From a virus (lineage: Duplodnaviria; Heunggongvirae; Uroviricota; Caudoviricetes), in IMG/VR virus record IMGVR_UViG_3300006201_000009: 64,000 nt of DNA; one strand, 5' to 3'. Of this stretch, positions 6,928 through 40,073 are shown in pieces. The position numbers were made by a program, and so were the translations under genes. The number at the start of each line of letters is the position of its first letter. Positions within the stretch are counted from its first letter, which is position 1. A model generated the notes under the pieces. That model had not been told where the DNA came from and made no database searches. It worked only from the letters and a program-made list of their open reading frames with translations.

Positions 6928-7650
6928 TTATTTGTAGAGCCAAGGATAGCGTTTTTTATTTTCCTCGTATTGCTTAATGCGCATATCGGATTGCTGCCAA
7001 GGTGACTCTTGCCTATTCCAACTATAATTTACCTTCTCTTCGTCTAACGCTCTTATAGTTAGCAAGTTGCATATACGCAAAATTAAACGAGCCGGTTCTG
7101 TTGCAAACAAATTAGATGCACGTCCATAATTATCATATTTATATACGATATCATCTATTGTTATTGAGGCGTTCGGTTCACCAAAGAATAGTTCGGGTCT
7201 ATCAATATACGGTGGCTGCCAAGGATAATACCATATTAAATCATGCAATCCCAATTGTTGTTGGGCTGGTTGCTGATTGCCTAAAATTTTTGCAAAGGCA
7301 CAATCATCTTCATAGTTTTCGGCAATTGATTTACAAGCTTCTTTATATAGGCGCGAATGTTTTTGTAGCGCAGATATCTTTTCGCTTTCCGATCTCGTAT
7401 CAGGGATATCGTATTTAACAAATAGAGACTCAATAGTTTCCATTATTGAGTTGCCGTCTACTGTCATCGATTGACTAATCTCTTCTAAGTCAGACATGAC
7501 TTTGGAAAAGTTATTACACCAAAGTTCATCCTGGCGCTTTACGTTCGTTATTGTTTTTTCTCTATATGTGCGCTTGTCTTCTTTTTTCTTTGCGGAGTCA
7601 AAGAACCACACAACCAAGAAGACTATGAGCACGACAAGTGCTAATGTCAT
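6928..7650 (-). CDS. Membrane-anchored hypothetical protein
   Basis: N-terminal TM helix MTLALVVLIVFLVVWFF. Confidence 0.35.
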   Translation of the reverse strand: MTLALVVLIVFLVVWFFDSAKKKEDKRTYREKTITNVKRQDELWCNNFSKVMSDLEEISQSMTVDGNSIMETIESLFVKYDIPDTRSESEKISALQKHSRLYKEACKSIAENYEDDCAFAKILGNQQPAQQQLGLHDLIWYYPWQPPYIDRPELFFGEPNASITIDDIVYKYDNYGRASNLFATEPARLILRICNLLTIRALDEEKVNYSWNRQESPWQQSDMRIKQYEENKKRYPWLYK

Positions 7651-13789: not shown

Positions 13790-13802
13790 ATCTCACGACT
13801 CC

Positions 13803-15014
13803 TTATATATTGTGTTTAAGTAAGAATTGATTGCTGATACACTTAAAGCTAATTTTGTTGTCGTGGTCTCGTATAACAACGCCTTCTCTAAGCGTATCGC
13901 ACAATGTGGACTTTCCGTCAGCATAAGCAATCATTTCATCGACAGTGGGGAGCAGCTTAAAGTTCGCGTTAATAATCGGAACCCACTTGATTCCAAAGTC
14001 GTGCATCACATCTGTTGCGACTGCGCTGTCCATTTTTACCCCGTCGATTACAAGGTTGAAGGCATAGAAATCAATTCCCTTGAGACCGTATTTATTTTTT
14101 TGAATTGCCTCGCCAATGGTTTCGCCCTGAAGAACGACAGTAGTTGCTTTATATTTTTCAAGTATCTGCATAAGCACGTTGCGGATGTCGTACTTATTGG
14201 CGATTTGGTGGTACACATTGTCGTCGTAGAAACACTTTTGGTTGATGTCGGCTTGGCGCACGTTCCGTGAACACACCGCGAAGTCATATTTTCTTTTCTT
14301 TTCTTTTCTCAACCCAAAGCTCGTAGAGGTGCCGTCCAGCTTTTCAGTGACGACCATTGGCTTGTCCTTGTATGTATCGAGAACGAAAGGCATATTTTGC
14401 AAACGTGTTTCGTCCGTTTTAACGATCCAGTCGGGGAAGTTTTTCGGTTTCTTTTTCGGTGCGAGAAGTTTATAAACGGTTTTTCTAAACCACTTGAACT
14501 TCATAAACCATAAAAATACTTTATTTTTGAAGAGTTTTTTGTGGCGTTGCTTAATTGCCGCCGCGGGGTCTTTGACCTGTTGCTTGGGAACATCATCTTC
14601 GACCTGTTTAATCTTAAGGATGTCGGTAACATCGTCACCGATGCCGTGTGTTTTTTCGTCATGGAGAACAGAGAGGGGGAAGATGATGCCTTGAGATATG
14701 ACGCCGCGCATTTTCATTGTCTTAATTTTATAATGTTTAGACTCAAGAAACGCGAAGTCAGGATTGTCGGAAGGCATAATGCTGTCAATTTCAACGTAGA
14801 TTGCAAGATCGCCAACCTTAAATTCATTCTTTTTTACGATACACTGCCAGCCGAGTATGCCGGCGAGCTCGATTTTGTCAGCTCCTTCGATGGGGCGGAG
14901 CCATGCAATTTGTTCGATGTGAGCAAGTTTTCTCATAATACACTCCAAATTATTTTTTGTGTTTGGAACGAAGCCATTGAATATGTTTTTTAATGCTGTC
15001 TTGACGACTGTCAT
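13803..15014 (-). CDS. ATP-dependent RNA ligase with N-terminal OB-like domain (Rnl5/DraRnl/NgrRnl-like)
   Basis: Nucleotidyltransferase motif I KLDGTS (VVTEKLDGTSTSF); N-terminal MRKLAHIEQIAWLRPIEGADKIELAGILGWQCIVKKNEFKVGDLAIYVEIDS resembles N-terminal domain of this Rnl class. Confidence 0.55.
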   Translation of the reverse strand: MTVVKTALKNIFNGFVPNTKNNLECIMRKLAHIEQIAWLRPIEGADKIELAGILGWQCIVKKNEFKVGDLAIYVEIDSIMPSDNPDFAFLESKHYKIKTMKMRGVISQGIIFPLSVLHDEKTHGIGDDVTDILKIKQVEDDVPKQQVKDPAAAIKQRHKKLFKNKVFLWFMKFKWFRKTVYKLLAPKKKPKNFPDWIVKTDETRLQNMPFVLDTYKDKPMVVTEKLDGTSTSFGLRKEKKRKYDFAVCSRNVRQADINQKCFYDDNVYHQIANKYDIRNVLMQILEKYKATTVVLQGETIGEAIQKNKYGLKGIDFYAFNLVIDGVKMDSAVATDVMHDFGIKWVPIINANFKLLPTVDEMIAYADGKSTLCDTLREGVVIRDHDNKISFKCISNQFLLKHNI

Positions 15015-15315
15015 TTTCTTTCGTTCCTATGCTTCTGTCAACCGCGACGAAAATTTTGAATGAACCAATTAACATTTCCGCTAATTGTTCATCGGTGAGA
15101 CTTTCAAGCCATTCGCGGTTGGTTAAAACGGGTTCGGTTTGAGCCTCTTGAATTTTTGAATTTGCTTGCTGTTCGGCACGCTGACGCTGAATTGTACGAT
15201 TGCTTTTACTCCAATCGTCACCGCCGTGATTGCGGCACGCTGGATCAAATGCTTTCTCGCCATAGTAAGGTTTTCTCTTTTCTTTACCGTGTTGAATTGC
15301 TTTGTCGAGGCTCAT
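14950..15315 (-). CDS. Hypothetical protein
   Basis: ORF only. Confidence 0.3.
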   Translation of the reverse strand: MSLDKAIQHGKEKRKPYYGEKAFDPACRNHGGDDWSKSNRTIQRQRAEQQANSKIQEAQTEPVLTNREWLESLTDEQLAEMLIGSFKIFVAVDRSIGTKENDSRQDSIKKHIQWLRSKHKK

Positions 15316-15328
15316 AATTATTCTCCGT

Positions 15329-16438
15329 TTAAGGTTTAGGTATGATTATTGTTGCAGAGTCACCGCTCATAACATCTGGCAGTTCTCCGTTCCATTTTGA
15401 TAGATATTCGATATACTTGAGATAATCAGAAATGACAGAAATTTCCTCAGCACTTTTGCCCGTGAAGTCGATAGTGTATTCAATGATTGTTTCTCCATCA
15501 TTGTCTGTAACTTCATTTTCAAGAATAGTAAACCCAAGCATACGAGCAACTTCGATAGACTTAAGTTTTGTTGCTCTCGCCTCTGACTGCGCTATTGTTA
15601 CTTGCGCAGCGGCATCACCTTCGGCGGCGGCTATCTTTGCTTCGGCGTTTAACTTTGCAACAGCGAGCGAAGCTTCCGCTTCAATCTTTGCTATTTGAGC
15701 TGCGGCTTCCGCTTCAATTTTGGCTTTCTCCGCCTCATATTGTGCTTGCAATTGTTGTTGTTCAGCAATCATTTTTTGTTCGACAGTTTGTTCAAAAGCA
15801 TCCGAAAAGTCGATGTTTGTCAGAACGGCGGTATTTATGGTTACGAAATAATTTTCCGATATAACAAGCTTAATTGCGTCTTCAACTTCTGGTGATATTG
15901 AAGCTCTGGTTTCAATAATTGTCATCGCCGAATAGTTTGATAGAACAGATTTGGCACGTTCAATCGATACGCTGCGAATTCTACTTGATAAAGCATCAAG
16001 AGAGCCGTAGGTTGTTGCAATTTCTTTGACTTTATCTGTATCGATTTGATATTGAACTGTCATTGTCAAGTCCATTGTTTGGGCATCTTTTGAATAGGCG
16101 GAATCTTGTATGTCGAGCGTTTGTACCTTGGTATCGTACTTTTCGTATTTTTCCGTGATCCAGAAATCGTAGTACGTCCCTGCTGTGTGTACGTCTTTTA
16201 TCTGTCCGAGATGCTTTACTACGGCAATTTCACCAGTATCTACTGTGTGAAAACTTCCAGGAATAAAGAATGTAAGCAATGCAAATGCAATGCCAAGACA
16301 TAGGCATCCCCATTTGCTAACTTTCCAGCCGATAGCGTCCTCGCCATCATACACTTTGTATGCGCTTATGCCGAATACTACCCAGCCAGCCACACAAAGA
16401 GCAGCAAATAAAAAACCAAGTGTTAATGCTATTGCCAT
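15329..16438 (-). CDS. SPFH/band-7 (prohibitin/flotillin-like) membrane protein with Ala-rich coiled-coil
   Basis: N-terminal TM segments; SPFH-like core (VVKHLGQIKDV...); long A/E/K coiled-coil AEQQQLQAQYEAEKAKIEAEAAAQIAKIEAEA. Confidence 0.5.
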   Translation of the reverse strand: MAIALTLGFLFAALCVAGWVVFGISAYKVYDGEDAIGWKVSKWGCLCLGIAFALLTFFIPGSFHTVDTGEIAVVKHLGQIKDVHTAGTYYDFWITEKYEKYDTKVQTLDIQDSAYSKDAQTMDLTMTVQYQIDTDKVKEIATTYGSLDALSSRIRSVSIERAKSVLSNYSAMTIIETRASISPEVEDAIKLVISENYFVTINTAVLTNIDFSDAFEQTVEQKMIAEQQQLQAQYEAEKAKIEAEAAAQIAKIEAEASLAVAKLNAEAKIAAAEGDAAAQVTIAQSEARATKLKSIEVARMLGFTILENEVTDNDGETIIEYTIDFTGKSAEEISVISDYLKYIEYLSKWNGELPDVMSGDSATIIIPKP

Positions 16439-16462
16439 TATTGTGTAAATCTCCTTAAAAAA

Positions 16463-17101
16463 TTAGTGCTTATTAAATACAACGGACTCGCCGCTCTTAA
16501 TGTTCCAACACTGCAAGCAATTCGTGCAATCGCCAGAGCATTCAGCCGCGCTTTCCGGTATAGATTTGTTTTCGCTTTCCTTAAACCGAACATACGCAAC
16601 AGGGAAGGAGTATGGATTTTCAACTTTGAAATCGTCACCCCAAGCGCTAAATACGATGTGCAGGTTATCGGGAATAGTGCCGCCATTTTGTATGTATTCG
16701 TTTACAAGTTCAAACTTTTTAGTAAACGCAAGGAAGGATGTGAGGGGAAGTTCATTGGCGACTTTAACGACGCCCTCAAAATATTCTTTATCTACGAAAT
16801 CGCCCGAAGCGTGCCAACGAAAGTAAGAATATGAAACCATTCCGTTGTTGATTGCGTGTTTAATTTCTTCAAAGTATGACGCAGGATCGTGAAAGTAAAG
16901 CTTGTAATTGTTTGTTAGATTGTCCTTTACGTTTTGAAAACGAAAGCGTCCCTTTGTGGCATAGCAATCTTTTGCGCATGGGCAATGTGGTCGGCAGGTT
17001 GTTATCGGCGGCAAGTTCACCGACGGTATCAACCCAAGTTTGCTGTTGGTAGTTGATATCTTTACTGGCATATAAATCTCCTTATTTGGCTCATTGTCCA
17101 A
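16463..17101 (-). CDS. Cys-rich putative Fe-S protein (DUF5131-like?)
   Basis: CRPHCPCAKDC and CSGDCTNCLQC clusters. Confidence 0.3.
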   Translation of the reverse strand: MDNEPNKEIYMPVKISTTNSKLGLIPSVNLPPITTCRPHCPCAKDCYATKGRFRFQNVKDNLTNNYKLYFHDPASYFEEIKHAINNGMVSYSYFRWHASGDFVDKEYFEGVVKVANELPLTSFLAFTKKFELVNEYIQNGGTIPDNLHIVFSAWGDDFKVENPYSFPVAYVRFKESENKSIPESAAECSGDCTNCLQCWNIKSGESVVFNKH

Positions 17102-17150
17102 AGAGAAGATTTATATTTAGTTAAGTCAGTCTCTTTGGACTGAGAAGTTG

Positions 17151-17906
17151 TTACTCTAACGTAGCGGGCATATTTCTCTTGTGCTCTGACGCTTGGTGCA
17201 TTTGCTCTATTTTTAGAGCGGTTTCGTAATCCGTGTTTGAAGTTCCACCCGTGATATACCCGTCAAGCGTTGAGTATGTAAAGCCGAAACTATCTTCGTC
17301 ACTCTTGCCGCATAATCCATCGGACGGTGTCTTAACGACATACTTTTTATCTAATCCGAACTCCTCAGCAAGCAGTTCGCCGAGAGCAATAACCTCGGTA
17401 CAGGTTAGATGGGCAATGGGGTTGAAGTCGTATGCGCTGTCGCCCCATTTGGTTGTCCAACCGATATAAGCCTCGCTTGCATTGCCTGTTCCAATAACCC
17501 TGTATCCAAGGGTTTGGGCAATGGCGTACAGCACTGTCATACGAATACGAGGAGGGATATTGGTAAGTGATTTTCTTGAGATATTAAATACCTTACCGTT
17601 ACAATAATCCGAGCCAGAACCTTCGTCTTCGACAACCTCGAGCAATGAGTCATAAACTTTTCCGATATTAACTACCTTGAAGTTTATCCCAAGGGTTTCA
17701 ACAATTTTGAGAGAGTCGTCAAGGTCGGATTGGTTGTGATTTGGCATAAGAACGCCAAGCACATTGTCCCCCCAAACTTTCTTCGCAAGCATTGCTACAA
17801 CGGTGCTATCTTTGCCGCCACTTATTCCAAGAACAACTCCGCGACATCTTGTAATTTCTTTGTACTGTTCAAGCCAGTCTAATATTTCTTTTAGTTTAGC
17901 TTCCAT
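17151..17906 (-). CDS. nadE: NH3-dependent NAD+ synthetase (PP-loop ATP pyrophosphatase)
   Basis: PP-loop SGGKDS in GVVLGISGGKDSTVVAMLA; size 251 aa. Confidence 0.65.
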   Translation of the reverse strand: MEAKLKEILDWLEQYKEITRCRGVVLGISGGKDSTVVAMLAKKVWGDNVLGVLMPNHNQSDLDDSLKIVETLGINFKVVNIGKVYDSLLEVVEDEGSGSDYCNGKVFNISRKSLTNIPPRIRMTVLYAIAQTLGYRVIGTGNASEAYIGWTTKWGDSAYDFNPIAHLTCTEVIALGELLAEEFGLDKKYVVKTPSDGLCGKSDEDSFGFTYSTLDGYITGGTSNTDYETALKIEQMHQASEHKRNMPATLE

Positions 17907-18367
17907 ATTTCAACCTTCCATTTATCGTCGGCAAATTCTTCTTCGATGATTTTTCTCACTATGTTCCAGTCGCCGCCACCCAGTCCGCAACCGATGCCAT
18001 AAGGGAAGCCAATAGTAAATTCTGTATCGGCAATCTCTATCGGAATAAGGGTTTTAAGTTGTTGGCAGCATAGCCTAAACATCTCATAGTTCGTATGGTT
18101 AATGCCACGCGGCAAGTAATGAAGCTGTGCGAACATATTAGCAATGTAGTGGGTCTTAGCCTCTGAAATTGCGCATATTTGAGCAACTCCCATTAGGTAT
18201 TCCAGTTTATTCTGCTCGCATAGCTGTTTATATTTTGAAAAGATATGGGGGTAAGTGGCGCGTATCTGTTTTGCGATGCCTGAACCCATAACTCCTTGAC
18301 AGTTTACTTGGTGGCAGATGATATTGCAGTTGCTTTTAAGCAAATCTCCGTTTTTATATGTGATCAT
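17891..18367 (-). CDS. Macro-domain protein (ADP-ribose binding/hydrolase)
   Basis: ITYKNGDLLKSNCNIICHQVNCQGVMGSGIAKQI matches the macrodomain N-terminal signature. Confidence 0.6.
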   Translation of the reverse strand: MITYKNGDLLKSNCNIICHQVNCQGVMGSGIAKQIRATYPHIFSKYKQLCEQNKLEYLMGVAQICAISEAKTHYIANMFAQLHYLPRGINHTNYEMFRLCCQQLKTLIPIEIADTEFTIGFPYGIGCGLGGGDWNIVRKIIEEEFADDKWKVEIWKLN

Positions 18368-19860
18368 TAAAATTTATCTCCATAAAGCCTTCTGCGGACA
18401 TCGGCAAGACTATATTCGAGCGTCATCTTGCCGTCGTTAAAGACCGTCTTTAGGGCATTGTCGGCACGATAAGTCTCTTTGAAGTCGTGTTCGTCTTCGC
18501 TTGTTAACGCGCCGTCAGCCCCCGTTAAAACGAGCACACAGCCTTTGTGAGACTTTTTGAACGAAGCCTCTTTGGGATTTTTGAAAATCATTATAGGCTT
18601 TCCGTCTTTATCTTCAGCATAAGTCGCCTTGATGGCAATTCCGAACGTATCTCTTGTGTAGGGGTTGAACGTCGGGATAGCAGCGTGTTCCTCGTAAGAC
18701 TCAAGGCATTGCATAGAGAAGCTACCAACACCGAGAGCAACATTGCTTGCTGCAAATCCGTTGTCAACCAATATCGTGTAAATTGCTTCTGCTCTTTGAG
18801 GCGTAATGCTATCGCCGTATATTGCCTTGATATGGGGGTTTAGAACCTTGTAGCCCTTTGAGTTGACTGTTCCACCGAACTGCTCCCAAAGGTGGAACAC
18901 GGTCTTTGTGACGACCTCAACGGGGTCGCCAGAGTCGCCGCGCACCAAGAGACATCCGTTATGCTCGAGGATTTCTTTCTTACACATTGGCAAGATGTTG
19001 TCTACCAAGTTCCAGTAATCGTAGCTGTCGCTCACCATACTGAAAGACGTATTAGGATAGATTTCTGTGAGCAGACGCTTAATCATTGTGATTTCGTCAC
19101 CGTCAACCGCGAAATTGCTGCACATTACAGAGTGCTCAGTTGACACAGAACCAAAGCCGACTTCCTCTTTTGAACAGTCGCAGTTATAATATCTTTCCAT
19201 ATAATCTACCGCAGGAACGGTGGCAGTGTTCACGAATGATAACAGCCAACCGGCGGAAGATTTATATGCACTACGTTTTGACTCTTGTCCTCTCATTGAG
19301 AAATCTCCAAGAGCTTTTCTACGAGGGATATTGTCGTCGCAACTTAAATCATAGAAGTGATCTACAATTTTCCTATATTTGTACCCGACATTTGCCGAAA
19401 TCATGGCGTGCCACATTTCGCAACTGATGACAGATTCGAGCGCGTTTGTAAGCCAAGCAAAATCGGGGTGAGTGTTGCTTATCTCGAACATAGGAACGCC
19501 GATTGGAACGAGAGTGCCTTCTGCGAGTGCCTTAATCTCAATGGGCAGATAGCCCAAGTCGTGTAGTTCTGCGATGCGCTCAATGCCGTACAACCCTTCA
19601 CCGAGTGTGTTGTTGAGGAGATGTTTGTATTCGCGTACAACGTCTTCCTTAGGACGGGAAAAGAAGAACTCGTTAAAGTCTTCGATAAGATATTCTTTGA
19701 TGAAAGACTGTAACCCAAACATTATAAGGTGTTTATCGTTCTTTAATCTGCTCATTCTTGGCACAAAATAGCTTACGACCTTCGTGATGCCTTTTGGATA
19801 TTGGTTCCAATGAACTTGTTTATAAAAATCGCTTTCTAAAAGCGGGTTAATTCTGTACAT
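18367..19860 (-). CDS. nadV: Nicotinamide phosphoribosyltransferase (NAMPT/NadV)
   Basis: ESDFYKQVHWNQYPKGITKVVSYFVPR N-terminal NAMPT signature; 497 aa. Confidence 0.65.
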   Translation of the reverse strand: MYRINPLLESDFYKQVHWNQYPKGITKVVSYFVPRMSRLKNDKHLIMFGLQSFIKEYLIEDFNEFFFSRPKEDVVREYKHLLNNTLGEGLYGIERIAELHDLGYLPIEIKALAEGTLVPIGVPMFEISNTHPDFAWLTNALESVISCEMWHAMISANVGYKYRKIVDHFYDLSCDDNIPRRKALGDFSMRGQESKRSAYKSSAGWLLSFVNTATVPAVDYMERYYNCDCSKEEVGFGSVSTEHSVMCSNFAVDGDEITMIKRLLTEIYPNTSFSMVSDSYDYWNLVDNILPMCKKEILEHNGCLLVRGDSGDPVEVVTKTVFHLWEQFGGTVNSKGYKVLNPHIKAIYGDSITPQRAEAIYTILVDNGFAASNVALGVGSFSMQCLESYEEHAAIPTFNPYTRDTFGIAIKATYAEDKDGKPIMIFKNPKEASFKKSHKGCVLVLTGADGALTSEDEHDFKETYRADNALKTVFNDGKMTLEYSLADVRRRLYGDKF

Positions 19861-20656
19861 TTAGTAAGCCCTCCCTGTAACACCTTGTGACTTTGAGTTT
19901 TGGATGTGATACGGTACAAATACTGTCGGTAGTGAACACTGCATCTATATGATCGAACACCTCACCCTTAAGAATGTTATTCTCGCAATGTGATACAACG
20001 AGGGTAATATGTTCGACACCGCGTTTTCTTAATTCTTTCGCCGCCGCAACGAATGTTCCACCGTAGCTACAAATGTCGTCACGAATGATAACGCTCTTTG
20101 TCCCTTCTACGAAGTTCATCAACTCATAGCTTTCAATACGACCATCCGTGTTGCGGTGTTTATTTCCGATAATGAAAGGGTTGTCTGTCGGCTCAAGATG
20201 ATAACGAGGAGCGTACTTCTTTGCAGCTCCGTTGTCAGGAAACATAATGGTTGCTTGCTCATCTTTGGGCGAAACCCTGAACGGTAAGTCACTTTCTTCC
20301 ACACGATCAATGAGTGCCATTGAAACATCGGAGTGGGGGTCGAGTACAAACACTTTGTTAAACTTCATAAGATTTATGAGTTCTGCAAAATATTTGAGGG
20401 TAAACAGTCTATTGCTGACGTTTCTGTCTTGCCGTGCATGAGGAATATACGGCATACAAAGATTTATGAGAAGTGTAGGGTGTTGCTGGCGAATGTGTCC
20501 TACAAGACTCCACAGGCAAAACAGCTCTGCGTCATTGTCGTAGCACCACGTAATATAGATAAAACCACGCGCCGCTGCAATTGGTGGAATAGGGCATTTA
20601 AGCGTTCCGTCGCCAAATGTTTCTTGTTTAATAATCGTGTCTTCGATTTTAATCAT
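19847..20656 (-). CDS. prs: Ribose-phosphate pyrophosphokinase (PRPP synthetase)
   Basis: PRPP-binding loop IIRDDICSYGGTFVAAAKEL; DPHSDVS motif; linked to nadV as in other phage NAD salvage modules. Confidence 0.6.
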   Translation of the reverse strand: MIKIEDTIIKQETFGDGTLKCPIPPIAAARGFIYITWCYDNDAELFCLWSLVGHIRQQHPTLLINLCMPYIPHARQDRNVSNRLFTLKYFAELINLMKFNKVFVLDPHSDVSMALIDRVEESDLPFRVSPKDEQATIMFPDNGAAKKYAPRYHLEPTDNPFIIGNKHRNTDGRIESYELMNFVEGTKSVIIRDDICSYGGTFVAAAKELRKRGVEHITLVVSHCENNILKGEVFDHIDAVFTTDSICTVSHPKLKVTRCYREGLLNVQN

Positions 20657-20677
20657 TGTGTTTCTCCGTTATATGTC

Positions 20678-21448
20678 TTAGTCTTCGGATACAGCGCCGA
20701 GTTCTAATAAAATTGGTACGAGTTCATCTTCCAAGAAAATGTCATACCACTCGTCGAATGCGTCCTTTGTTGCTTCGTTGAACTTGCTTGCTTCGATGTC
20801 TGGCTTTAGGTCATAACCGACGTCATACAAAGCACAATCGGATAATGTTCCTTCGCCGTTAAGATAACCGTGTTCTTGTGCCCAGCTATGCACAAATGCC
20901 CTTAACTCATCGTTTGAGTTAATAACTGCAATCTGGCAACTGTGCATAACTTCCAACGCGGCTTCGTGCTTCTCTTTTGTTAGCCCTGCGCATAAGTCGG
21001 CAAGAACAAGTATGTTTGCTTTGCTGAACAAGGTTACAAGGTTAAGAGCGTTAGATACGACGCAAATATCGGTACAGGTTCCGCATAGTTGAATTTCTTC
21101 TGGGAACTCGCACTTTGTTTTAATTGCAACGTACAGCGGTGTACCCGCTGAGAATGTGGTTTTGTTCACTTTAAGGATTGTTGCCTTAGGGTTGCGCTCT
21201 GCCGCCGCGTAGATTTCTGTATTGATGTTCCATCCCTCAGTTAAGGCGATGCAGTGGGGGACTGGTAGGTTCTTGCCCTCGCGAGTGTCGAGATAATCTT
21301 CCTCGTGTGTGTCTCTTGTAAAAACAATCAGACCTTCAAAGTTCGATACATAGTTAGCAACTTTATTAACGATTGCCTGTGCCATAGGATTAGCCAGCGA
21401 ACCGTCGATAAAATCGTTCTGCATATCGACAACAACTAAAACTTTCAT
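20678..21448 (-). CDS. pncA: Nicotinamidase / isochorismatase-family cysteine hydrolase (PncA-like)
   Basis: VVVDMQNDF, catalytic Cys context LCGTCTDICV. Confidence 0.6.
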   Translation of the reverse strand: MKVLVVVDMQNDFIDGSLANPMAQAIVNKVANYVSNFEGLIVFTRDTHEEDYLDTREGKNLPVPHCIALTEGWNINTEIYAAAERNPKATILKVNKTTFSAGTPLYVAIKTKCEFPEEIQLCGTCTDICVVSNALNLVTLFSKANILVLADLCAGLTKEKHEAALEVMHSCQIAVINSNDELRAFVHSWAQEHGYLNGEGTLSDCALYDVGYDLKPDIEASKFNEATKDAFDEWYDIFLEDELVPILLELGAVSED

Positions 21449-21602
21449 TGTTCCTCCTGAATTTTTATTTCTTGTAATACTTGCTCTTTTGTTTGTATGC
21501 GTCGAGCATATTCAAGCGCATCCTCGAATGAAGAAGCCTTGATATTTTCCGTCGAAAAGCTATTCTTGTCCAGCTCGTAGAAAGTTATTAAATAGTTTTC
21601 CA

Positions 21603-23120: not shown

Positions 23121-23166
23121 ATGTAGTAAGAGCATCCTACCTAAACATTGAACGAACCGCCCCAGG

Positions 23167-23200
23167 TGGACGGTGTTGGAGTCGAACCAACATCTCTCTT
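23167..23200 (-). other. tRNA 3'-half-like remnant (T arm + acceptor 3' strand + CCA) immediately after tRNA-Lys
   Basis: Minus strand reads ...GTTGGTTCGACTCCAACACCGTCCA with no 5' half. Confidence 0.4.
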
Positions 23201-23624: not shown

Positions 23625-23898
23625 ATAAAGGCTTTAAGGTCAGCCAACCGCACATACTTAACCCGAAAAATACTCAGGGTTGGATATTTGCTCCCCGAAG
23701 GTTTTACTCGATACTCAAACACACAAAGGGAATTTTCACTCGTCTCGTGAAATTCGTTATCGAATCGGATTTTCATGAGCTCGCGTAGTGAGCTTCTAAA
23801 AATCTGATTTGATGGAAGGGCGTTGTGATACATTTGCTATAAGCAAGTGCCTAACAGTATGTATAAAAGTTAGCATTGCTGTTTGAGTATCGGAGTAG

Positions 23899-23978
23899 TG
23901 GTGGAGCTGTTGGGATTTGAACCCAAGTCCTACGAATTCACTTTGGTTTTAATCGTAGTCGAAACCTTTCTCAGCCCC
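23899..23978 (-). ncRNA. tRNA-like RNA with canonical acceptor stem, T arm and CCA but aberrant D/anticodon region
   Basis: GGGGCTG...TTGGGTTCAAATCCCAA CAGCTCC A CCA; central part folds as an 5-bp stem (TACGA/TCGTA) with a 17-nt loop rather than a cloverleaf. Confidence 0.4.
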
Positions 23979-24216: not shown

Positions 24217-24368
24217 ATAAAAATATATAGGCTGTTCCTCAAACTCCATTTAACGTATCGTTATTTTCCGGCGCCCCAGTCAATAACTTTATCCATCCTT
24301 TCCCCGTTTCAATGCGGGTGTCTGCTTTACACTTCACTTCGCGGTTAGTACGGCACCTATATATTTTT

Positions 24369-24515
24369 TGGTGACTCGAACAGGAATTGAACCTGTACAT
24401 CTATCCCGTTTCTCGGCTACATACTGCAATGCAGGGATGTCGCGAACATCGCCGTAACCTACGCTTTAAGGCTTACTGTTCCCTCAGGGGTGTTCTATCA
24501 TTGAACTATCGAGCC
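24369..24515 (-). ncRNA. 147-nt tRNA-like RNA: canonical acceptor, U8A9, D arm, T arm and CCA, with ~70 extra nt replacing/inside the anticodon-variable region
   Basis: 5' GGCTCGA-TA-GTTC-AATGATA-GAAC ... 3' ACAGG-TTCAATT-CCTGT-TCGAGTC-A-CCA; 7-bp acceptor pairing (one G-U); internal small hairpins (CCCTGAGGG, GCGATGTTCGC, CTGCATTGCAG). Confidence 0.45.
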
Positions 24516-24518
24516 AAA

Positions 24519-24608
24519 TGGCGGAGGGTGTAGGACTCGAACCTACGCTCCGAATGAACGGAGAACGGCTTAGCAAGCCGCGGCAGTACCAACTATGCTT
24601 AACCCTCC
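24519..24608 (-). tRNA. tRNA-Ser (GCU), type II
   Basis: Acceptor GGAGGGT/ACCCTCC; anticodon stem GCGGC/GCCGT loop TTGCTAA; variable arm CTCCG-TTCATT-CGGAG; T loop GGTTCGAGTCC; CCA. Confidence 0.65.
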
Positions 24609-26066: not shown

Positions 26067-26849
26067 TTAGTCATCAATTACAATGCAGTTTATTTGCTTT
26101 GAGTAAGCCGTACAAGCGTCAAGTGCTATGATGCCGTCAGCGTAAAAAGGGGAGAAGTCTGCATCATCGCCGTACTCACTCTTAATTTTTCCTACGAGCT
26201 TATGCCCGAATGATGTGTTCCAATGTCCGCAGACAATGGTTTTGTTCGGTATCGTTGCTCCACACTCAACTGCAAGAGACATCCCGTTTTCCCAGCGAGC
26301 CTCAGCCCATTCTTCGTCCGTCGCTTCTTTCAAGTTTTTAACGTAATATCCTTCTTGTGGATCAACGCCACAAGGCACCCAGCCGTGAACGAATACATAA
26401 TGCTCTGTCTCATAATAATTCAACATCTTTGGTATGATTATGCGAACGAGGGGAGTAGCGGCGGTAGCTCTTGATACCGCTAAAATATCATCGTACAGGT
26501 CTCTCATTTTCTTTCCCGTTAATTGAAACGCCGTATCGAGGGTTTTGTTGCTTGCATGATGCGAATATGCAATAGCAAACGGGTCGCCTTCATCCATATC
26601 TTTTATCATATCCAGCGTTAAATCTTCGTGATTGCCGCGAATGAGTATGACCTTATCCTTTTTGAGCAAAGATAGGATATAATCCTGCATCTTGCGTGCT
26701 TCCTTACCGCGATCCATTAAATCACCGCAAATAATAACCTTGTGTTCAGGATTGTTTTCGTCAAATCCTTGCTCAAGCAGCGCATTGTGCAATAAGGCGA
26801 AGAACCCGTGAGGGTCTGCTGTTACAAAATATTTCATATAATTCCTCAC
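26067..26849 (-). CDS. Calcineurin-like metallophosphoesterase (Ser/Thr phosphatase/ApaH-like)
   Basis: ADPHG, GDLMDRG, GNHE motifs. Confidence 0.6.
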   Translation of the reverse strand: MRNYMKYFVTADPHGFFALLHNALLEQGFDENNPEHKVIICGDLMDRGKEARKMQDYILSLLKKDKVILIRGNHEDLTLDMIKDMDEGDPFAIAYSHHASNKTLDTAFQLTGKKMRDLYDDILAVSRATAATPLVRIIIPKMLNYYETEHYVFVHGWVPCGVDPQEGYYVKNLKEATDEEWAEARWENGMSLAVECGATIPNKTIVCGHWNTSFGHKLVGKIKSEYGDDADFSPFYADGIIALDACTAYSKQINCIVIDD

Positions 26850-27346
26850 GTTTCAAAAATCAGTATCGGTTGATAGTTTATTCTCTCAACGCTGACGCAC
26901 TTCGTGGTTGCTGTATCGTGATATTTTTCATCGTTATGGATGTGTCCATAGTAATTAAAATACGGCGTTGTTTCGCTCAACTGAAGGGGAGCGTGCGACA
27001 ACAGAAAGAAGTTGTTATAAAGTATCGGAAATTTTGACACGTATGAGAAACCAGCCTCACGATAAAATTCATCTGACCAATTATCGTGGTTGCCCTTAAT
27101 GAGAATTTTCTTACCATTAAGTTGTTTGATGATTTCTCTGCAACGCTCTTTACGTCCAAGCATAAAATCCCCGAGGTGTATTATTGTGTCTTGTTGTGTA
27201 ACCACGGCATTCCAATTTTTTATTAAAGCCTTGTCCATATCCTCGACTGAGCGGAATGGGCGGTTGCAATAGCGGATAACATTCTCATGTCCGAAGTGCG
27301 TGTCGGCAATAATAAATATTTTCATATCAGTTGCTCCTTGAACCAC
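26846..27346 (-). CDS. Small metallophosphoesterase
   Basis: ADTHFGH, LGDF, GNHDNW motifs; 166 aa. Confidence 0.55.
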   Translation of the reverse strand: MVQGATDMKIFIIADTHFGHENVIRYCNRPFRSVEDMDKALIKNWNAVVTQQDTIIHLGDFMLGRKERCREIIKQLNGKKILIKGNHDNWSDEFYREAGFSYVSKFPILYNNFFLLSHAPLQLSETTPYFNYYGHIHNDEKYHDTATTKCVSVERINYQPILIFET

Positions 27347-28146
27347 TGACGCAGTACGTCAACTTTAATTTGCTCCAACTTTGCGTAAGCAGTTCCGTCA
27401 CAATCCGTGCCATGTTCGTCAATGTATTTGTTCTTCAATGCCGCGTTTTCGTCGTCCAATTCTTTTGCAATTTTCAGCGCGTCTGCAAGCGGAATAGTAT
27501 TGAGTTTGGCTTCCGTCATTAAAATGAGTGTTTGCTCGTCATGTGATGTAAGGCAATCTGTAAACGGCATACCGGATAGGTAGTTCTTCATAAATTCGTT
27601 GATGCGAATGATGTGATGAAGTTGCTTTCCGTCATACCCGTACTTGTCGATTTTATGTTTAATAGTAGGGTAGGGGTGGCATAGAGCCTTGTACTTTTCA
27701 TAGCTCATACCAGCCATTGTTTTAAGTGTTTGCGAAGGATGGCAGTGAGTCAACTCTTCAGCAAGGCGCCGCAATTTTCTCCAATGCTTTACATATTTGT
27801 CCGCGACAATGAAATATTTTGTAAAAAGTATTTCAACGAAGTTCACGTTCTGCTTCTTAAAAGTCTCAAACATGATTCGCATATCTTTCAGATCGATGTG
27901 TTCTTTATTGGCGCGCTCACAAGTGGTGGAGATTGGAGACTTACCGCGGCAAAAATCATCAAAAGAAGGAAGAACAATAACCTTCGTATCAACGTCACTT
28001 TGATACTGTTCGCTATACACATCGAGATTGTAGTTCTGGCTTCCTTGCAAGAAAACTCCAAAAACTTCGTTTCCCATAAGGCAGGCTTCTTTGTAGTGTT
28101 GTTGCACTTTTGCGTTGATGAGATTATTACGTTCTTTTTTGTCCAT
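27322..28146 (-). CDS. Pol-beta-superfamily nucleotidyltransferase
   Basis: GS...DxD motif FLQGSQNYNLDVYSEQYQSDVD; start taken at internal MDKKERNN preceded by AAGAGG. Confidence 0.45.
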   Translation of the reverse strand: MDKKERNNLINAKVQQHYKEACLMGNEVFGVFLQGSQNYNLDVYSEQYQSDVDTKVIVLPSFDDFCRGKSPISTTCERANKEHIDLKDMRIMFETFKKQNVNFVEILFTKYFIVADKYVKHWRKLRRLAEELTHCHPSQTLKTMAGMSYEKYKALCHPYPTIKHKIDKYGYDGKQLHHIIRINEFMKNYLSGMPFTDCLTSHDEQTLILMTEAKLNTIPLADALKIAKELDDENAALKNKYIDEHGTDCDGTAYAKLEQIKVDVLRQWFKEQLI

Positions 28147-28156
28147 TGATTGCCTC

Positions 28157-28819
28157 TTAAAGTCCTGTTTGTTCTGTATGGAAGCAGAGCGGCTGACCTG
28201 TTGTTTTGTCGATACCTTCACCAATAACTCGTATATACTTATCGTGCTTCGTGCTTGTCTGCTCAATGTAGACCGTGCCCTTAAAATTCTTAATAAGCGT
28301 AGTTGTCCACGGTTTTTCGGTGTGATAATCGAATTGCGGGTTGTAATTTAATACCTCGGACAAAAGGAAAACGCCAACCATACCAGCATCAGCACAGAAT
28401 TTGCCAAGCTCCCTATTCGTCTTGTCCTCAAAGGTGGTGCAGCTCCAATCACCGTAGATTGTGCTGTTGGTGAGGTATGTGGTGAGACCAAGTTTTTCCA
28501 TTTCATCCCCGTATGAGCAGATATACCAGTCATCAGGGTGAGCTTTATCCCACGCATCGTAAGCTTCACGCATTTTGTCGTACTGAGGGCGGAATTCATT
28601 CTTCATAATGTCAGCAATTTGCTCAGCCGTTAACCCTTCAGCTGCGAGGTCTTTGTCGTTGTAGCTTTTCCTGCTCATATAATCGTCCCACTTGGGTTCG
28701 TCGGTTGTGTCGCGATCCTTGGTAATATAACAAGGGTCTGTTATAATGATATCTCCGTCAAATGACATTAATTTGAGACGTTCTCTGACCATAATTTTCT
28801 CCTTACGCGCCGGCAACAT
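28157..28819 (-). CDS. Hypothetical protein (ITDPCY motif)
   Basis: ORF; no confident family. Confidence 0.3.
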   Translation of the reverse strand: MLPARKEKIMVRERLKLMSFDGDIIITDPCYITKDRDTTDEPKWDDYMSRKSYNDKDLAAEGLTAEQIADIMKNEFRPQYDKMREAYDAWDKAHPDDWYICSYGDEMEKLGLTTYLTNSTIYGDWSCTTFEDKTNRELGKFCADAGMVGVFLLSEVLNYNPQFDYHTEKPWTTTLIKNFKGTVYIEQTSTKHDKYIRVIGEGIDKTTGQPLCFHTEQTGL

Positions 28820-29699
28820 CGCACTGATGAAAAGTGTCTAATAATTTCGACAACTCGTCTGGCAATGCCGCGCTATATTTTGTGTGAAGGAACACATCCA
28901 TATGTACGTTAATAAGCCAATAAATCAATGCTCTCTGTTTGATATGTAGGGGAATGGTTTCTTCGTATCCAATGGCGAAGTAGCTTCCCACATTTTGATG
29001 GTTGTAGAAGTGAGCAATCTCGCTCGGTTCGCCGCGGCTATTCTTAAAGCCTTTCACGAATTTTTTCCCAATATCGTGTAGACTTGCCGCAATAAGCAAC
29101 GTAATTGCAACTCCTTTGTGTGAACTTCTGTTTTTCTGCAATTTTGCGGCTTCCGTCATAACTTTCAAAGTGTGTTCTTTGACTGTGTTGTTATGATGAG
29201 GATTGTCGTGTTCGCAATCGAGCCAATTTTCATAATCGCTGTGCTTATAAGATTCGTCGTTTACCTTAAACTCAATTTCATCCCAGCCCTCATCGTAATA
29301 GGGTGGCTGAAAATTAAGAAGCATACGCTTAATGACACTTTCGCCTACATTACGATTTCTGCTACAGTCCCTCGCTACGCAAGTTTCGTATCTTGCCCAT
29401 ACTACGCAGGCGATTTTCTTGCAAGGTATTTTGAGACTCGATAAGAGATGTTTGCGCTTTTTGCGACTGATGTTGGTTGCATCATATACAACATTCTTGC
29501 TGCTTTTAAGTGCGGCGATAGTGCGGCGCTGCATTTCCTCAAATATTTTAGAAGGGTTGTCCTGAATAGCTTCGTCGCCATAGAACTCTTTTCTTATCGC
29601 GTCGGAGGATAAAATAATTGTATTGTCGTTGGTGAGTTGTTTTGCAACCTCGGTTTTGCCGGAGCCAGGCAATCCTATAAGCATAGTGAATTTAACCAT
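28803..29699 (-). CDS. P-loop polynucleotide-kinase-like domain fused to HD phosphohydrolase (HD-Pnk-like)
   Basis: Walker A LIGLPGSGKTEVAKQL; C-terminal HD motif LLIAASLHDIGKKF; GGAGAGG RBS before MVKFTMLIG start. Confidence 0.5.
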   Translation of the reverse strand: MVKFTMLIGLPGSGKTEVAKQLTNDNTIILSSDAIRKEFYGDEAIQDNPSKIFEEMQRRTIAALKSSKNVVYDATNISRKKRKHLLSSLKIPCKKIACVVWARYETCVARDCSRNRNVGESVIKRMLLNFQPPYYDEGWDEIEFKVNDESYKHSDYENWLDCEHDNPHHNNTVKEHTLKVMTEAAKLQKNRSSHKGVAITLLIAASLHDIGKKFVKGFKNSRGEPSEIAHFYNHQNVGSYFAIGYEETIPLHIKQRALIYWLINVHMDVFLHTKYSAALPDELSKLLDTFHQCDVAGA

Positions 29700-30054
29700 A
29701 GACGACCTCTCCAAAAATCGCATACTGGATAATTGCGTCTGCATCTTCGGCATCGATTTCACCTGCATCGATTTTTCCTTCGTAAAGAATATCAAGCCCA
29801 CGCTCTTCGGCAATCTTTGTTAATCCGGCTATAAACTTTTCAAGATTAAGTTCATACCATTTGTCTTCATCGGAATCGTGAAGCCTAAGTGTGCCGCCGC
29901 GAGAAATCTGATCGCTTGCATATTCTCCGAGATGATCTCCAACAACTTCGGCGCAATCACACCAGTAAGAAATCCCGCCATCTAATGCGGTGCTCATTAT
30001 ATCGTCAATGCACTGATTGTCGTATTCAACTTCATAAGTAATGGTAAGTTTCAT
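29692..30054 (-). CDS. Hypothetical acidic protein
   Basis: Start MKLTITYE preceded by GAGG RBS and GTGTCTAAATATG motif; longer ORF-track version would translate the motif. Confidence 0.35.
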   Translation of the reverse strand: MKLTITYEVEYDNQCIDDIMSTALDGGISYWCDCAEVVGDHLGEYASDQISRGGTLRLHDSDEDKWYELNLEKFIAGLTKIAEERGLDILYEGKIDAGEIDAEDADAIIQYAIFGEVVYG

Positions 30055-39831: not shown

Positions 39832-39950
39832 TGGGAGCGGTGGGACTCGAACCCACGACCACGAGCTTAAAAGGCTATTCAGTAAAATTGCTGTGAGAGA
39901 TTTTACAAACCTCGTAGTGATACGTGCTCTACCAACTGAGCTACGCTCCC
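39832..39950 (-). ncRNA. Y-RNA-like tRNA mimic 1 (acceptor + D arm + T arm; anticodon arm replaced by 8-bp stem with 41-nt loop)
   Basis: GGGAGCG-TA-GCTCAGTTGGTAGAGC ... GTGGG-TTCGAGT-CCCAC-CGCTCCC-A; no CCA. Confidence 0.55.
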
Positions 39951-39956
39951 AAATGA

Positions 39957-40073
39957 TGGAGATGGTAGGACTCGAACCTACAACCTTCGGCACCCTATGC
40001 AAAAGTAAAGTTGCTGTATGAGCCTAACAAGACTCGTCTTTAACGACGCTCTATCCAGTTGAGCTACATCTCC
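39957..40073 (-). ncRNA. Y-RNA-like tRNA mimic 2
   Basis: GGAGATG-TA-GCTCAACTGGATAGAGC ... GTAGG-TTCGAGT-CCTAC-CATCTCC-A; expanded central region; no CCA. Confidence 0.55.

What the first reader, a model, noticed from the sequence alone, without database searches (positions are those of the whole stretch)
24369..24515. 147-nt tRNA-like gene inside the tRNA array with a ~70-nt insertion in place of a normal anticodon/variable region
The 5' end (GGCTCGA-TA-GTTC-AATGATA-GAAC) and 3' end (ACAGG-TTCAATT-CCTGT-TCGAGTC-A-CCA) form a perfect tRNA acceptor stem, D arm and T arm. They are separated by 94 nt where ~22 nt are expected, and no canonical anticodon stem can be drawn. It is either a tRNA with an unusually short intron or large insertion, or a third tRNA-mimic ncRNA. 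A second aberrant 80-nt tRNA-like gene lies at 23899-23978. A tRNA 3'-half remnant with CCA follows tRNA-Lys at 23167-23200.
Basis: seen in the sequence. Interest (0 to 1): 0.55.

Follow-up and report, generated by a model that had tools for sequence, protein, structure and literature searches.

The report
Phage tRNA-Asp gene with replaced anticodon arm
This 147-base gene in a phage tRNA cluster is a former aspartate tRNA whose decoding arm was replaced by about 90 bases of unrelated sequence, so it keeps the tRNA shape that processing enzymes recognise but can no longer read a codon; it is most likely a young relic, not a new kind of RNA.

Summary
On the minus strand of 24369-24515 lies a 147-nt RNA gene with a perfect 7-bp acceptor stem, D arm, T arm, A73 and CCA. 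It has 95 nt between the D and T arms where a tRNA has about 22. ARAGORN does not call it, with or without introns. The Rfam tRNA model scores 40.4 bits by skipping 88 nt.

The new result is its origin. In every sister phage outside a ~99%-identical lineage, the slot between tRNA-Ser(GCU) and tRNA-Glu holds a canonical tRNA-Asp(GUC). That gene has the identical acceptor stem and the same 3' flank. One sister has destroyed it by a deletion. So the element is a decoding-dead derivative of tRNA-Asp, with no GUC and no G73.

It is not an intron-containing tRNA. No excision restores an anticodon arm better than shuffled controls do.

The insert has no fold signal (z = +0.38) and no homologue anywhere searched. 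It is unrelated to the two other long tRNA-likes in the window.

All nine substitutions in the tRNA body are G/C to A/T, which suggests decay, yet no helix pair is broken (p about 0.07).

Best reading: a young relic that is still processed like a tRNA (0.6). Rival: an exapted natural "tRNA scaffold" carrying a functional payload (about 0.27).

The parts
24369..24515 (-). Whole 147-nt tRNA-Asp-derived tRNA-like gene (RNA position n = window 24516 - n)
   Evidence: Sequence. Rfam tRNA 40.4 bits. Pattern match 1 versus 0 in shuffles. Identical or 99.3% identical in 11 other assemblies.
24509..24515 (-). Acceptor stem, 5' strand GGCUCGA (RNA 1-7)
   Evidence: Pairs 7 of 7 with RNA 137-143. Identical to the acceptor stem of tRNA-Asp(GTC) in L099, L107, L109, L208 and L209.
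24492..24506 (-). D arm GUUC-AAUGAUA-GAAC (RNA 10-24). The loop is shortened by 2 nt, and G19 is changed to A on my gapped alignment of the D loops.
   Evidence: Compared with the sister tRNA-Asp, C11U and G24A form a compensated pair.
24397..24491 (-). 95-nt stretch replacing position 26, the anticodon arm and the variable loop. It is an orphan sequence with no GUC triplet.
   Evidence: Rfam alignment. Fold z-score +0.38. No similarity to the window, loci, spacers or other inserts. No hit in public collections. Polymorphism U30C (window 24486) in L119-L124 falls in a predicted loop.
24380..24396 (-). T arm ACAGG-UUCAAUU-CCUGU (RNA 120-136)
   Evidence: G51A and C63U (tRNA numbering) are compensated relative to the sister tRNA-Asp. 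A120G in L095 (window 24396) changes A-U to G.U.
24369..24379 (-). Acceptor stem 3' strand UCGAGUC, discriminator A73 (G73 in tRNA-Asp), encoded CCA
24352..24362 (-). 3' flank ATATAGGTGCC, shared with the 3' flank of tRNA-Asp in L099 and L103 and marking orthology
   Evidence: Alignment A1.
24519..24608 (-). tRNA-Ser(GCU). Its CCA end is only 3 nt (UUU) upstream of G1 of the element. In sister phages, 87-300 nt separate Ser from Asp.

Best explanation
The element is a lineage-specific, decoding-dead derivative of the phage's own tRNA-Asp(GUC) gene. In the ancestor of this phage lineage, position 26, the anticodon arm and the variable loop were replaced by 95 nt of unrelated sequence. The spacer to the upstream tRNA-Ser(GCU) was also lost. 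The rest of the tRNA then drifted by G/C-to-A/T changes, losing G73 and shortening the D loop (G19 too, on my alignment). The acceptor stem, D stem, T arm, T-loop consensus and CCA are all intact. I therefore infer, without having shown it, that it is still transcribed with the array. I further infer that RNase P cuts it at G1 and that its 3' end is trimmed to CCA, leaving a roughly 147-nt tRNA-shaped RNA that cannot be charged by AspRS or read a codon. The most likely reason the tRNA shape persists is youth. A second possible reason is a residual role as a processing unit. Because it starts 3 nt after tRNA-Ser(GCU), RNase P cleavage at its 5' end would also free the 3' trailer of that tRNA. 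On this reading the 95-nt insert has no function of its own.
For: Shown: orthology to tRNA-Asp.
- It occupies the same slot between tRNA-Ser(gct) and tRNA-Glu(ttc).
- It has the identical acceptor stem GGCTCGA/TCGAGTC and a homologous 3' flank.
- This holds against L099/L100, L103, L107-L109, L114/L115, L208 and L209.

Shown: loss of decoding.
- ARAGORN finds no anticodon arm, with or without introns.
- The element contains no GUC triplet, and it has A73 in place of G73.

Shown: the gene is dispensable in this phage group. L110 has deleted from the Asp anticodon stem to the T arm of tRNA-Glu.

Shown: signs of decay.
- All 9 substitutions relative to the sister tRNA-Asp are G/C to A/T transitions (p = 0.004).
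- The D loop lost 2 nt, and G19 on my alignment of the loops.

Shown: the insert looks like passenger sequence.
- Its fold energy is no better than shuffles (z = +0.38, with 125 of 200 shuffles folding at least as well).
- It has no homologue in the window, the fetched loci, IMG/VR, JGI metagenomes, GTDB genomes or GenBank phages.
- It has no significant internal repeat.

Shown: narrow distribution. It occurs only in a lineage at least 99.3% identical over the element.

Established knowledge: a tRNA acceptor stem with T and D arms, carrying foreign RNA in place of the anticodon arm, is recognised and processed by the bacterial machinery and accumulates stably. This is the 'tRNA scaffold' of PMC3753655.

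Tight tRNA-to-tRNA junctions of 1-5 nt are the rule in this array.
Against: All 16 helix pairs of the tRNA core are intact. The four substitutions that fall in stems form two fully compensated pairs. With 9 random transitions, the chance of breaking no pair is only 0.06-0.07. Both polymorphisms inside the lineage are structure-neutral, one in a predicted loop and one changing A-U to G.U. CCA and the T-loop consensus are retained. These points hint at continuing constraint on the shape. That constraint could come from a function of the RNA itself, not only from processing of the neighbouring tRNA. The D stem is not needed for RNase P cleavage. Within-lineage divergence is too low to measure selection: 0.7% in the element, against about 1-2% in spacers and about 0.3% in tRNAs. 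Expression and processing were not observed.
Confidence: 0.6

Rival explanations
1. Exapted natural 'tRNA scaffold'. The phage recycled its tRNA-Asp gene as a chassis that gets a roughly 90-nt payload RNA cut out by RNase P and protected from decay. The payload would then act on its own, for example as an antisense or sponge RNA or as a protein decoy.
For: The tRNA core is perfectly intact, with two compensated stem pairs. The probability of no broken pair by chance is 0.06-0.07. Both within-lineage polymorphisms are structure-neutral. CCA is retained. The architecture is exactly that of the engineered tRNA scaffold that works in bacteria (PMC3753655). The same window holds other tRNA-shaped non-tRNAs: a tmRNA tRNA-like-domain-only gene and two tRNA frames with 54-59-nt inserts. 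Phage T4 also keeps stable RNAs of unknown function in its tRNA cluster.
Against: The payload has no fold signal and no homologue or conserved motif anywhere. It has no significant complementarity within the window; the best match is 12 nt with E = 0.27. It is confined to one near-clonal lineage, while all sisters keep a normal tRNA-Asp. The body shows one-directional G/C-to-A/T decay, including loss of the elbow nucleotide G19 on my alignment. The compensated pairs may predate the insertion.
Confidence: 0.27
2. An intron-containing tRNA, either tRNA-Asp or another. The extra sequence is removed after transcription to give a functional decoding tRNA.
For: The insertion sits where tRNA introns sit. 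RNA ligase and polynucleotide kinase/phosphatase-like genes lie near the array.
Against: ARAGORN with introns up to 200 nt finds nothing. No Rfam group I intron or ribozyme family matches even at E up to 10. At 95 nt the stretch is far below group I size. There is no GUC triplet. Exhaustive single excisions give no consistent tRNA, and no more ARAGORN calls (113 of 864) than shuffled inserts (183 +/- 176). The discriminator is A, not the G73 of tRNA-Asp.
Confidence: 0.03
3. A member of a known tRNA-like RNA family (tmRNA, or YrlA/Y RNA-like), or of the family formed by the two long tRNA-likes at 39.8-40.1 kb.
For: It has tRNA-like ends and lies close to a tmRNA-like gene in the same array.
Against: There is no Rfam tmRNA or YrlA match over the element. 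The only YrlA hit nearby scores 15.9 bits against a gathering score of 69 and is offset. There is no G3:U70, and ARAGORN calls no tmRNA. In YrlA the 5' and 3' ends form the Ro-binding stem, not an acceptor stem. The insert shows no similarity to the 39.8-40.1 kb pair or to L006 (p = 0.65-0.78).
Confidence: 0.02

Closest known systems
tRNA-Asp(GUC) genes of sister phages (L099 7130-7207, L103 7217-7294, L107 4638-4714, L114, L115, L208, L209)
   Same: It occupies the same slot in the array, between tRNA-Ser(GCU) and tRNA-Glu(UUC). It has the identical 7-bp acceptor stem. The D and T arms are homologous (9 transitions and 2 single-base deletions over 52 nt), and so is the 3' flank. CCA is encoded.
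   Different: The anticodon arm and variable loop are replaced by 95 nt of orphan sequence. There is no GUC. G73 is changed to A. The D loop is 7 nt instead of 9-10 nt, and G19 is changed to A on my alignment. The Ser-Asp spacer is reduced from 87-300 nt to 3 nt.
Engineered 'tRNA scaffold' chimeras (Ponchon and Dardel; described in PMC3753655)
   Same: The architecture is the same: acceptor stem, T and D arms kept, with foreign RNA in place of the anticodon stem-loop. In E. coli such chimeras are recognised, processed and stable.
   Different: Those are designed constructs with a hairpin-closed insertion. Here the insert is natural, is not closed by a clear stem, and has no demonstrated payload function.
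Phage T4 species 1 and species 2 stable RNAs (rnaC 139 nt, rnaD 119 nt; NC_000866 70908-71171)
   Same: They are small stable non-tRNA RNAs of unknown function encoded at the end of a phage tRNA cluster. They are of similar size. rnaC carries a T-arm-like hairpin followed by an acceptor-like 3' strand.
   Different: There is no sequence similarity (blastn against the phage collection, which includes T4, found nothing). T4 rnaC and rnaD do not match the Rfam tRNA model (best hit tRNA-Sec, 17.5 bits) and lack a full tRNA core. The element here scores 40.4 bits and has a traceable tRNA-Asp ancestor.
tRNA pseudogenes and rearranged tRNA genes in phage arrays (for example the Asp/Glu deletion fusion in L110)
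   Same: It derives from a functional tRNA gene and has lost its decoding determinants. The same gene is affected in a sister lineage.
   Different: Unlike the L110 fusion, whose acceptor strands no longer pair, all three retained helices and the CCA are intact here.
tRNA-like sequences of murine gammaherpesvirus 68 (Bowden et al. 1997, listed among the references of PMC6409571 and not read here; the comparison below is from my own knowledge)
   Same: A viral tRNA-shaped module is used as a processing and expression unit for attached non-tRNA RNA.
   Different: That is a eukaryotic virus, transcribed by RNA polymerase III, with the payload downstream of the tRNA-like part and not inside it. 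There is no homology.

Membership tests
Canonical elongator tRNA | 7-bp acceptor stem, discriminator base and CCA end | tested here: met
   GGCUCGA/UCGAGUC pairs 7 of 7, followed by A73 and CCA.
Canonical elongator tRNA | D arm and T arm with a UUCNANN loop | tested here: met
   The D stem has 4 bp and the T stem 5 bp; the T loop is UUCAAUU. The D loop has a single G, so the G18 G19 pair of the elbow is incomplete.
Canonical elongator tRNA | Anticodon arm: 5-bp stem and 7-nt loop with U33 and an anticodon | tested here: not met
   ARAGORN makes no call. The Rfam alignment skips 88 nt in place of the arm.
Canonical elongator tRNA | Score at or above the Rfam RF00005 gathering threshold | tested here: met
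   40.4 bits against 29, but only through a large local insertion and only with lax filters. The whole-window run missed it.
Intron-containing tRNA | Exons reconstitute an anticodon arm after removal of one segment | tested here: not met
   ARAGORN with the intron option finds nothing. Testing 864 excisions gave 113 inconsistent calls, against 183 +/- 176 in shuffled inserts.
Intron-containing tRNA | Group I intron core, the only intron class known in bacterial and phage tRNA genes | tested here: not met
   No Rfam intron or ribozyme match at E up to 10. The stretch is only 95 nt.
Intron-containing tRNA | Bulge-helix-bulge motif and a splicing endonuclease (archaeal type) | not tested
   No dedicated search was run. 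No anticodon arm can be restored in any case.
Orthologue or derivative of the phage tRNA-Asp(GUC) gene | Same position in the array, same acceptor stem, homologous flank | tested here: met
Orthologue or derivative of the phage tRNA-Asp(GUC) gene | Functional tRNA-Asp determinants: GUC anticodon and G73 | tested here: not met
   There is no GUC in the 147 nt, and position 73 is A. That these bases are AspRS identity elements is from my own knowledge.
tmRNA | Match to tmRNA models, G3:U70, tag reading frame | tested here: not met
   No Rfam RF00023 or ARAGORN tmRNA call on the element. Pair 3-70 is C-G. The only short reading frame, MFATSLHCSM, has no tmRNA tag features (read from the sequence).
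YrlA / Y RNA-like | Match to Rfam RF02553, with the 5' and 3' ends forming the Ro-binding stem | tested here: not met
   The only hit scores 15.9 bits against a gathering score of 69 and is offset to 24492-24547. Here the ends form an acceptor stem.
T4 species 1/2-type stable RNAs | Non-tRNA stable RNA gene inside a phage tRNA cluster | tested here: met
   The position in the array is shown; the T4 annotation is. Stability of the RNA cannot be tested here.
T4 species 1/2-type stable RNAs | Sequence or structure homology to rnaC or rnaD | tested here: not met
   No blastn match to the phage collection, which includes T4. The T4 RNAs do not match the tRNA model.
tRNA pseudogene (non-functional relic) | Absence of purifying selection on the sequence | tested here: inconclusive
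   Decay-like G/C-to-A/T bias (p = 0.004) stands against no broken helix pair (p = 0.06-0.07). Within-lineage divergence is too low to test.

The most novel reading that the evidence does not exclude
A phage has converted one of its own tRNA genes into a natural 'tRNA scaffold'. The tRNA-Asp shell is kept only so that RNase P, 3' trimming and the tRNA fold deliver and stabilise a roughly 90-nt payload RNA with its own regulatory or decoy function during infection. This would be caught here at a very early evolutionary stage.
Probability: 0.25. Interest if true: 0.6.

Novelty: new variant of a known kind. Interest (0 to 1): 0.3.

Why it matters
As it stands, the finding is mainly an annotation and evolution point. 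Phage tRNA arrays turn over by local rearrangement. A tRNA gene can lose its anticodon arm and still keep the half of the molecule that processing enzymes read, so tRNA finders miss it and it could be mistaken for a new RNA class.

It also gives a dated, before-and-after example of how a tRNA-shaped non-coding RNA can arise, because sister phages still carry the intact tRNA-Asp. If the insert proved functional, it would be a natural counterpart of the engineered tRNA scaffold. It would then suggest a route by which the stable RNAs of unknown function in phage tRNA clusters, such as T4 species 1 and 2, originated.

Tried and rejected
**Searches for a cryptic intron or known RNA family**
- ARAGORN with introns up to 200 nt found nothing on the element.
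- Exhaustive excision of every segment, followed by ARAGORN, gave no more calls than shuffled inserts.
- Rfam at E up to 10 on the element alone matched only tRNA. No intron, ribozyme, CRISPR repeat, tmRNA or YrlA family matched.

**Searches for copies elsewhere**
- blastn of the element against 50,697 phage records found no match.
- Megablast of the surrounding 2 kb hit only generic tRNAs.
- Exact and gapped DNA patterns for the element found nothing in IMG/VR, JGI metagenome contigs or GTDB genomes.
- The pattern itself is valid, because it matches the window.
- The JGI contig collection evidently does not include the JGI assemblies that carry the element (L085, L086).

**Possible origin of the insert**
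- It shows no significant similarity to the rest of the window or to any fetched locus.
- It shows none to the Ser-Asp spacers of sister phages on either strand, or to the Asp anticodon arm (p = 0.21-0.93).
- An apparent internal direct repeat is not significant (p = 0.16).
- It shows no similarity to the inserts of the other long tRNA-likes.

**Other ideas**
- Structured payload: the fold z-score of the insert is +0.38.
- CRISPR-repeat mimic: this was suggested by the ...CCGAGAAAC ending. No Rfam CRISPR-DR hit and no genomic match support it, so it is only a recalled resemblance.
- tmRNA-like tag: the 10-codon frame has no tmRNA features.
- A motif scan in IMG/VR for the other family (CANACAGCAAYTTTACT) gave 82 single hits, none inside a tRNA frame. 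That is chance level.
- Within-lineage rate comparison: there is too little divergence to be informative.

Full report
**1.

The tRNA array of this window is on the minus strand. ARAGORN finds 14 tRNAs between 21892 and 26062. Read on that strand, 24515 down to 24369 gives a 147-nt sequence:

GGCUCGA-UA-GUUC-AAUGAUA-GAAC-[95 nt]-ACAGG-UUCAAUU-CCUGU-UCGAGUC-A-CCA

The features are as follows.
- The acceptor stem pairs 7 of 7, with G2.U71.
- The D stem pairs 4 of 4 and the T stem 5 of 5.
- The T loop keeps the UUC..A consensus.
- CCA is encoded, as in all neighbouring tRNAs.

A pattern describing this frame matches once in the window and never in 100 dinucleotide shuffles. ARAGORN does not call it. 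The Rfam whole-window run with default filters also misses it. When the interval is searched alone, the Rfam tRNA model scores 40.4 bits (gathering score 29). It aligns everything except the anticodon arm, where 88 nt replace 15 model positions.

The element is not an assembly artefact. The same 147 nt occurs in eleven other independent assemblies from JGI, ENA and Logan.

**2. The genome it sits in**

The window is part of a large tailed phage.
- It carries a terminase, a portal and a 933-aa YonO-type RNA polymerase-like protein. The nearest GenBank relative of that protein is a 176-kb phage contig from human faeces, at 47% amino-acid identity.
- One sister contig is labelled mouse gut metagenome.
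- The array is flanked by NAD-salvage genes. It is also flanked by metallophosphoesterase, kinase, nucleotidyltransferase and RNA ligase genes of the kind used for tRNA repair.

**3. Its origin, the main new result**

I used the flanking nicotinamidase and a 76-aa protein just upstream of tRNA-Ser(GCU) as handles. With them I fetched sister phages at 61-86% (the 76-aa protein) and 69-77% (nicotinamidase) amino-acid identity.

The array order Ser(GCU) - X - Glu - Thr - Ile ... is conserved.
- In L099/L100, L103, L107-L109, L114/L115, L208 and L209, X is a canonical 77-78-nt tRNA-Asp(GUC).
- That tRNA-Asp has exactly the acceptor stem of the element, GGCTCGA/TCGAGTC.
- In L099 and L103 it is followed by the same flank, ATATAGGTGCC.
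- In L110 the gene has been destroyed differently. A deletion joins the 5' half of tRNA-Asp to the T arm of tRNA-Glu.

The 147-nt form occurs only in the window's own lineage, in three haplotypes:
- the window type, in L085, L086 and L088;
- A120G in L095, which changes A-U to G.U at the first T-stem pair;
- U30C in L119-L124, which falls in a predicted hairpin loop.

The element is therefore a derived state of tRNA-Asp(GUC).

**4. What changed**

I compared the retained 52-nt body with the nearest tRNA-Asp (L107). There are nine substitutions and two single-base deletions in the D loop.
- All nine substitutions are G/C to A/T transitions (p = 0.004 if sites were hit at random).
- They include G73A. 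On my gapped alignment of the D loops they also include G19A.
- Four lie in stems and form two compensated pairs: C11-G24 to U-A, and G51-C63 to A-U.
- No helix pair is broken. With nine random transitions that happens 6-7% of the time.
- The 87-300-nt spacer between Ser and Asp has shrunk to UUU.

The functional tRNAs of the array differ between the window and these sisters by 5-6% on average. Some reach 16-18%, namely Lys and Leu-UAA. The roughly 20% divergence of the element's body is therefore high but not unprecedented. The compensated pairs could also predate the insertion.

**5. The insert**

The 95 nt (RNA 25-119, window 24491-24397) contain no GUC. I found no sign that the sequence is structured or derived from anything known.
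- Folded alone, it is no more stable than shuffles (z = +0.38, centroid almost unpaired). The modest z of -1.77 for the whole element comes from the tRNA stems.
- It has no significant similarity to any of the following:
  - the rest of the window or the roughly 200 fetched loci;
  - the sister spacers or the Asp anticodon arm;
  - itself;
  - the inserts of the other long tRNA-likes.
- Nothing was found in GenBank phages, IMG/VR, JGI metagenome contigs or GTDB genomes.
- No Rfam family other than tRNA matches.

**6. It is not an intron**

ARAGORN's intron mode finds nothing. I then removed every possible single segment leaving 70-96 nt (864 variants) and ran ARAGORN on each.
- There were 113 calls with scattered anticodons, many of them malformed and none Asp.
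- Twenty shuffled inserts gave 183 +/- 176 calls.
- A perfect tRNA core makes ARAGORN permissive, so these calls are not evidence of a hidden exon structure.

**7. How it most likely works**

Shown: it is a tRNA-Asp derivative that has lost every decoding determinant but keeps the acceptor, D and T helices and CCA.

Established knowledge: bacterial cells recognise, process and stably accumulate chimeras made of a tRNA acceptor stem with T and D arms and foreign RNA in place of the anticodon arm. This is the 'tRNA scaffold' (PMC3753655).

Inferred, not shown:
- The element is co-transcribed with tRNA-Ser(GCU), which ends 3 nt upstream.
- RNase P cuts at its G1, and its 3' end is trimmed to CCA.
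- The product is a stable, uncharged, tRNA-shaped RNA of about 147 nt.
- That same RNase P cut would create the short 3' trailer of tRNA-Ser. This gives a plausible reason for the tRNA shape to be retained after decoding was lost.

Tight junctions of 1-5 nt are the norm in this array: Glu-Thr 2 nt, Thr-Ile 5 nt, Ile to the tmRNA-like gene 1 nt, and Leu-Leu 3 nt.

I weigh the readings as follows.
- **Young relic, or processing unit with a passenger insert (0.6).** This is supported by:
  - the narrow distribution;
  - independent loss of the same gene in L110;
  - the decay-like mutation spectrum;
  - the orphan, unstructured insert.
- **Exapted natural tRNA scaffold with a functional payload (about 0.27).** The unbroken helices and the two structure-neutral polymorphisms keep this alive.
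- **Spliced tRNA (0.03) and membership of tmRNA, YrlA or the other local tRNA-like family (0.02).** Neither is supported.

**8. Comparison with known things**

- Closest by descent: the sister tRNA-Asp genes.
- Closest by architecture: the engineered tRNA scaffold.
- Closest natural analogue by context: T4 species 1 and species 2 RNAs (rnaC, rnaD), which sit at the end of the T4 tRNA cluster.
  - I fetched them. rnaC has a T-arm hairpin and an acceptor-like 3' strand.
  - Neither RNA matches the Rfam tRNA model; the best hit is tRNA-Sec at 17.5 bits.
  - There is no sequence similarity to the element. The resemblance is in context only, not in family membership.

**9. Verdict**

The feature is real. 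It is a new variant of a known kind: a rearranged tRNA gene, or tRNA-derived tRNA-like RNA, in a phage array. Interest is modest (0.3). The most novel reading not excluded is a natural tRNA scaffold caught at birth (probability about 0.25, interest 0.6 if true).

Noticed in passing
window 23899-23978 (-); also L095 4443-4519, L099 7754-7830, L103 7673-7749: This is an 80-nt gene that matches only the tRNA-like domain of tmRNA (Rfam RF00023, 69.4 bits). It has G3:U70 and ACCA. The 306-nt mRNA and pseudoknot part of the model is replaced by 11 nt. It starts 1 nt after tRNA-Ile, and its acceptor strands are identical in sister phages at about 70% protein identity. A tag-less mini-tmRNA in a phage tRNA array looks functional and deserves its own study.
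   Followed up: partly
window 39957-40073 and 39832-39950 (-); L006 3956-4068: These are two tandem tRNA-like genes of 117 and 119 nt (Rfam tRNA 51.7 and 50.6 bits). They carry 54-59 nt inside the anticodon stem and have no encoded CCA. Their inserts share ACAGCAAYUUUACU (0 of 500 shuffles). The first also shares AGUCUUGUU...CAGCAA with a 113-nt tRNA-like in a distant relative, which ARAGORN reads as tRNA-Ile(UAU) plus a 41-nt intron (p = 0.002). This looks like a recurrent family of insertion-bearing phage tRNAs, distinct from the element studied here. A motif scan of IMG/VR gave only chance hits.
   Followed up: partly
window 23121-23200 (-): The 80-nt spacer between tRNA-Lys and tRNA-Tyr contains the T-arm-like hairpin GUUGG-UUCGACU-CCAAC followed by ACCGU-CCA. 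It is almost invariant in all sister phages examined (L005, L095, L099, L103, L107, L110), as conserved as the tRNAs themselves. It is probably a functional processing signal or minihelix, not a decaying remnant.
   Followed up: partly
L110 4579-4655: In one sister phage, a deletion fuses the 5' half of tRNA-Asp (through the 5' strand of the anticodon stem) to the T arm and 3' end of tRNA-Glu. The product is a hybrid whose acceptor strands cannot pair. Both tRNA-Asp and tRNA-Glu are lost there.
   Followed up: yes
window 23625-23690 (-); L099 about 7070-7125, L107 about 4415-4470, L110 about 4350-4405: A conserved block of about 55 nt (CCAACCCTGAGTATTTTTCGGGTTAAGTATGTGCGGTTG.CTGACCTTAAAG) lies upstream of tRNA-Gln in the window. 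The same block lies upstream of tRNA-Asp in sister phages. It is a repeated leader of unknown role, perhaps a promoter or processing element.
   Followed up: no
window 24217-24260 (-): The block TAAATGGAGTTTGAGGAACAGCCTATAT, just upstream of tRNA-Glu, is conserved in all aligned sister phages while the rest of that spacer is not. It may be a promoter or processing site that starts the Glu-Thr-Ile-tmRNA-like unit. The sigma-70 consensus scan did not flag it.
   Followed up: no
window about 13800-21450 and 26067-29813 (-): The array is bracketed on one side by a complete NAD-salvage set: nicotinamidase, ribose-phosphate pyrophosphokinase-like protein, NAMPT, Macro domain protein and NAD synthase. 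On the other side and beyond lie two metallophosphoesterases, a nucleotidyltransferase, a KTI12/AAA_33 kinase-like protein and an RNA ligase. These are the kinds of genes used for tRNA repair.
   Followed up: partly
window 50325-53126 (+): This 933-aa protein is related to YonO-type single-subunit RNA polymerases, which are annotated as 'RNA-dependent RNA polymerase' in Enterocloster, Thomasclavelia and Psychrobacillus phages. Its nearest GenBank relative, at 47% identity, is a 176-kb phage contig from human faeces. This suggests a Firmicutes gut host.
   Followed up: no
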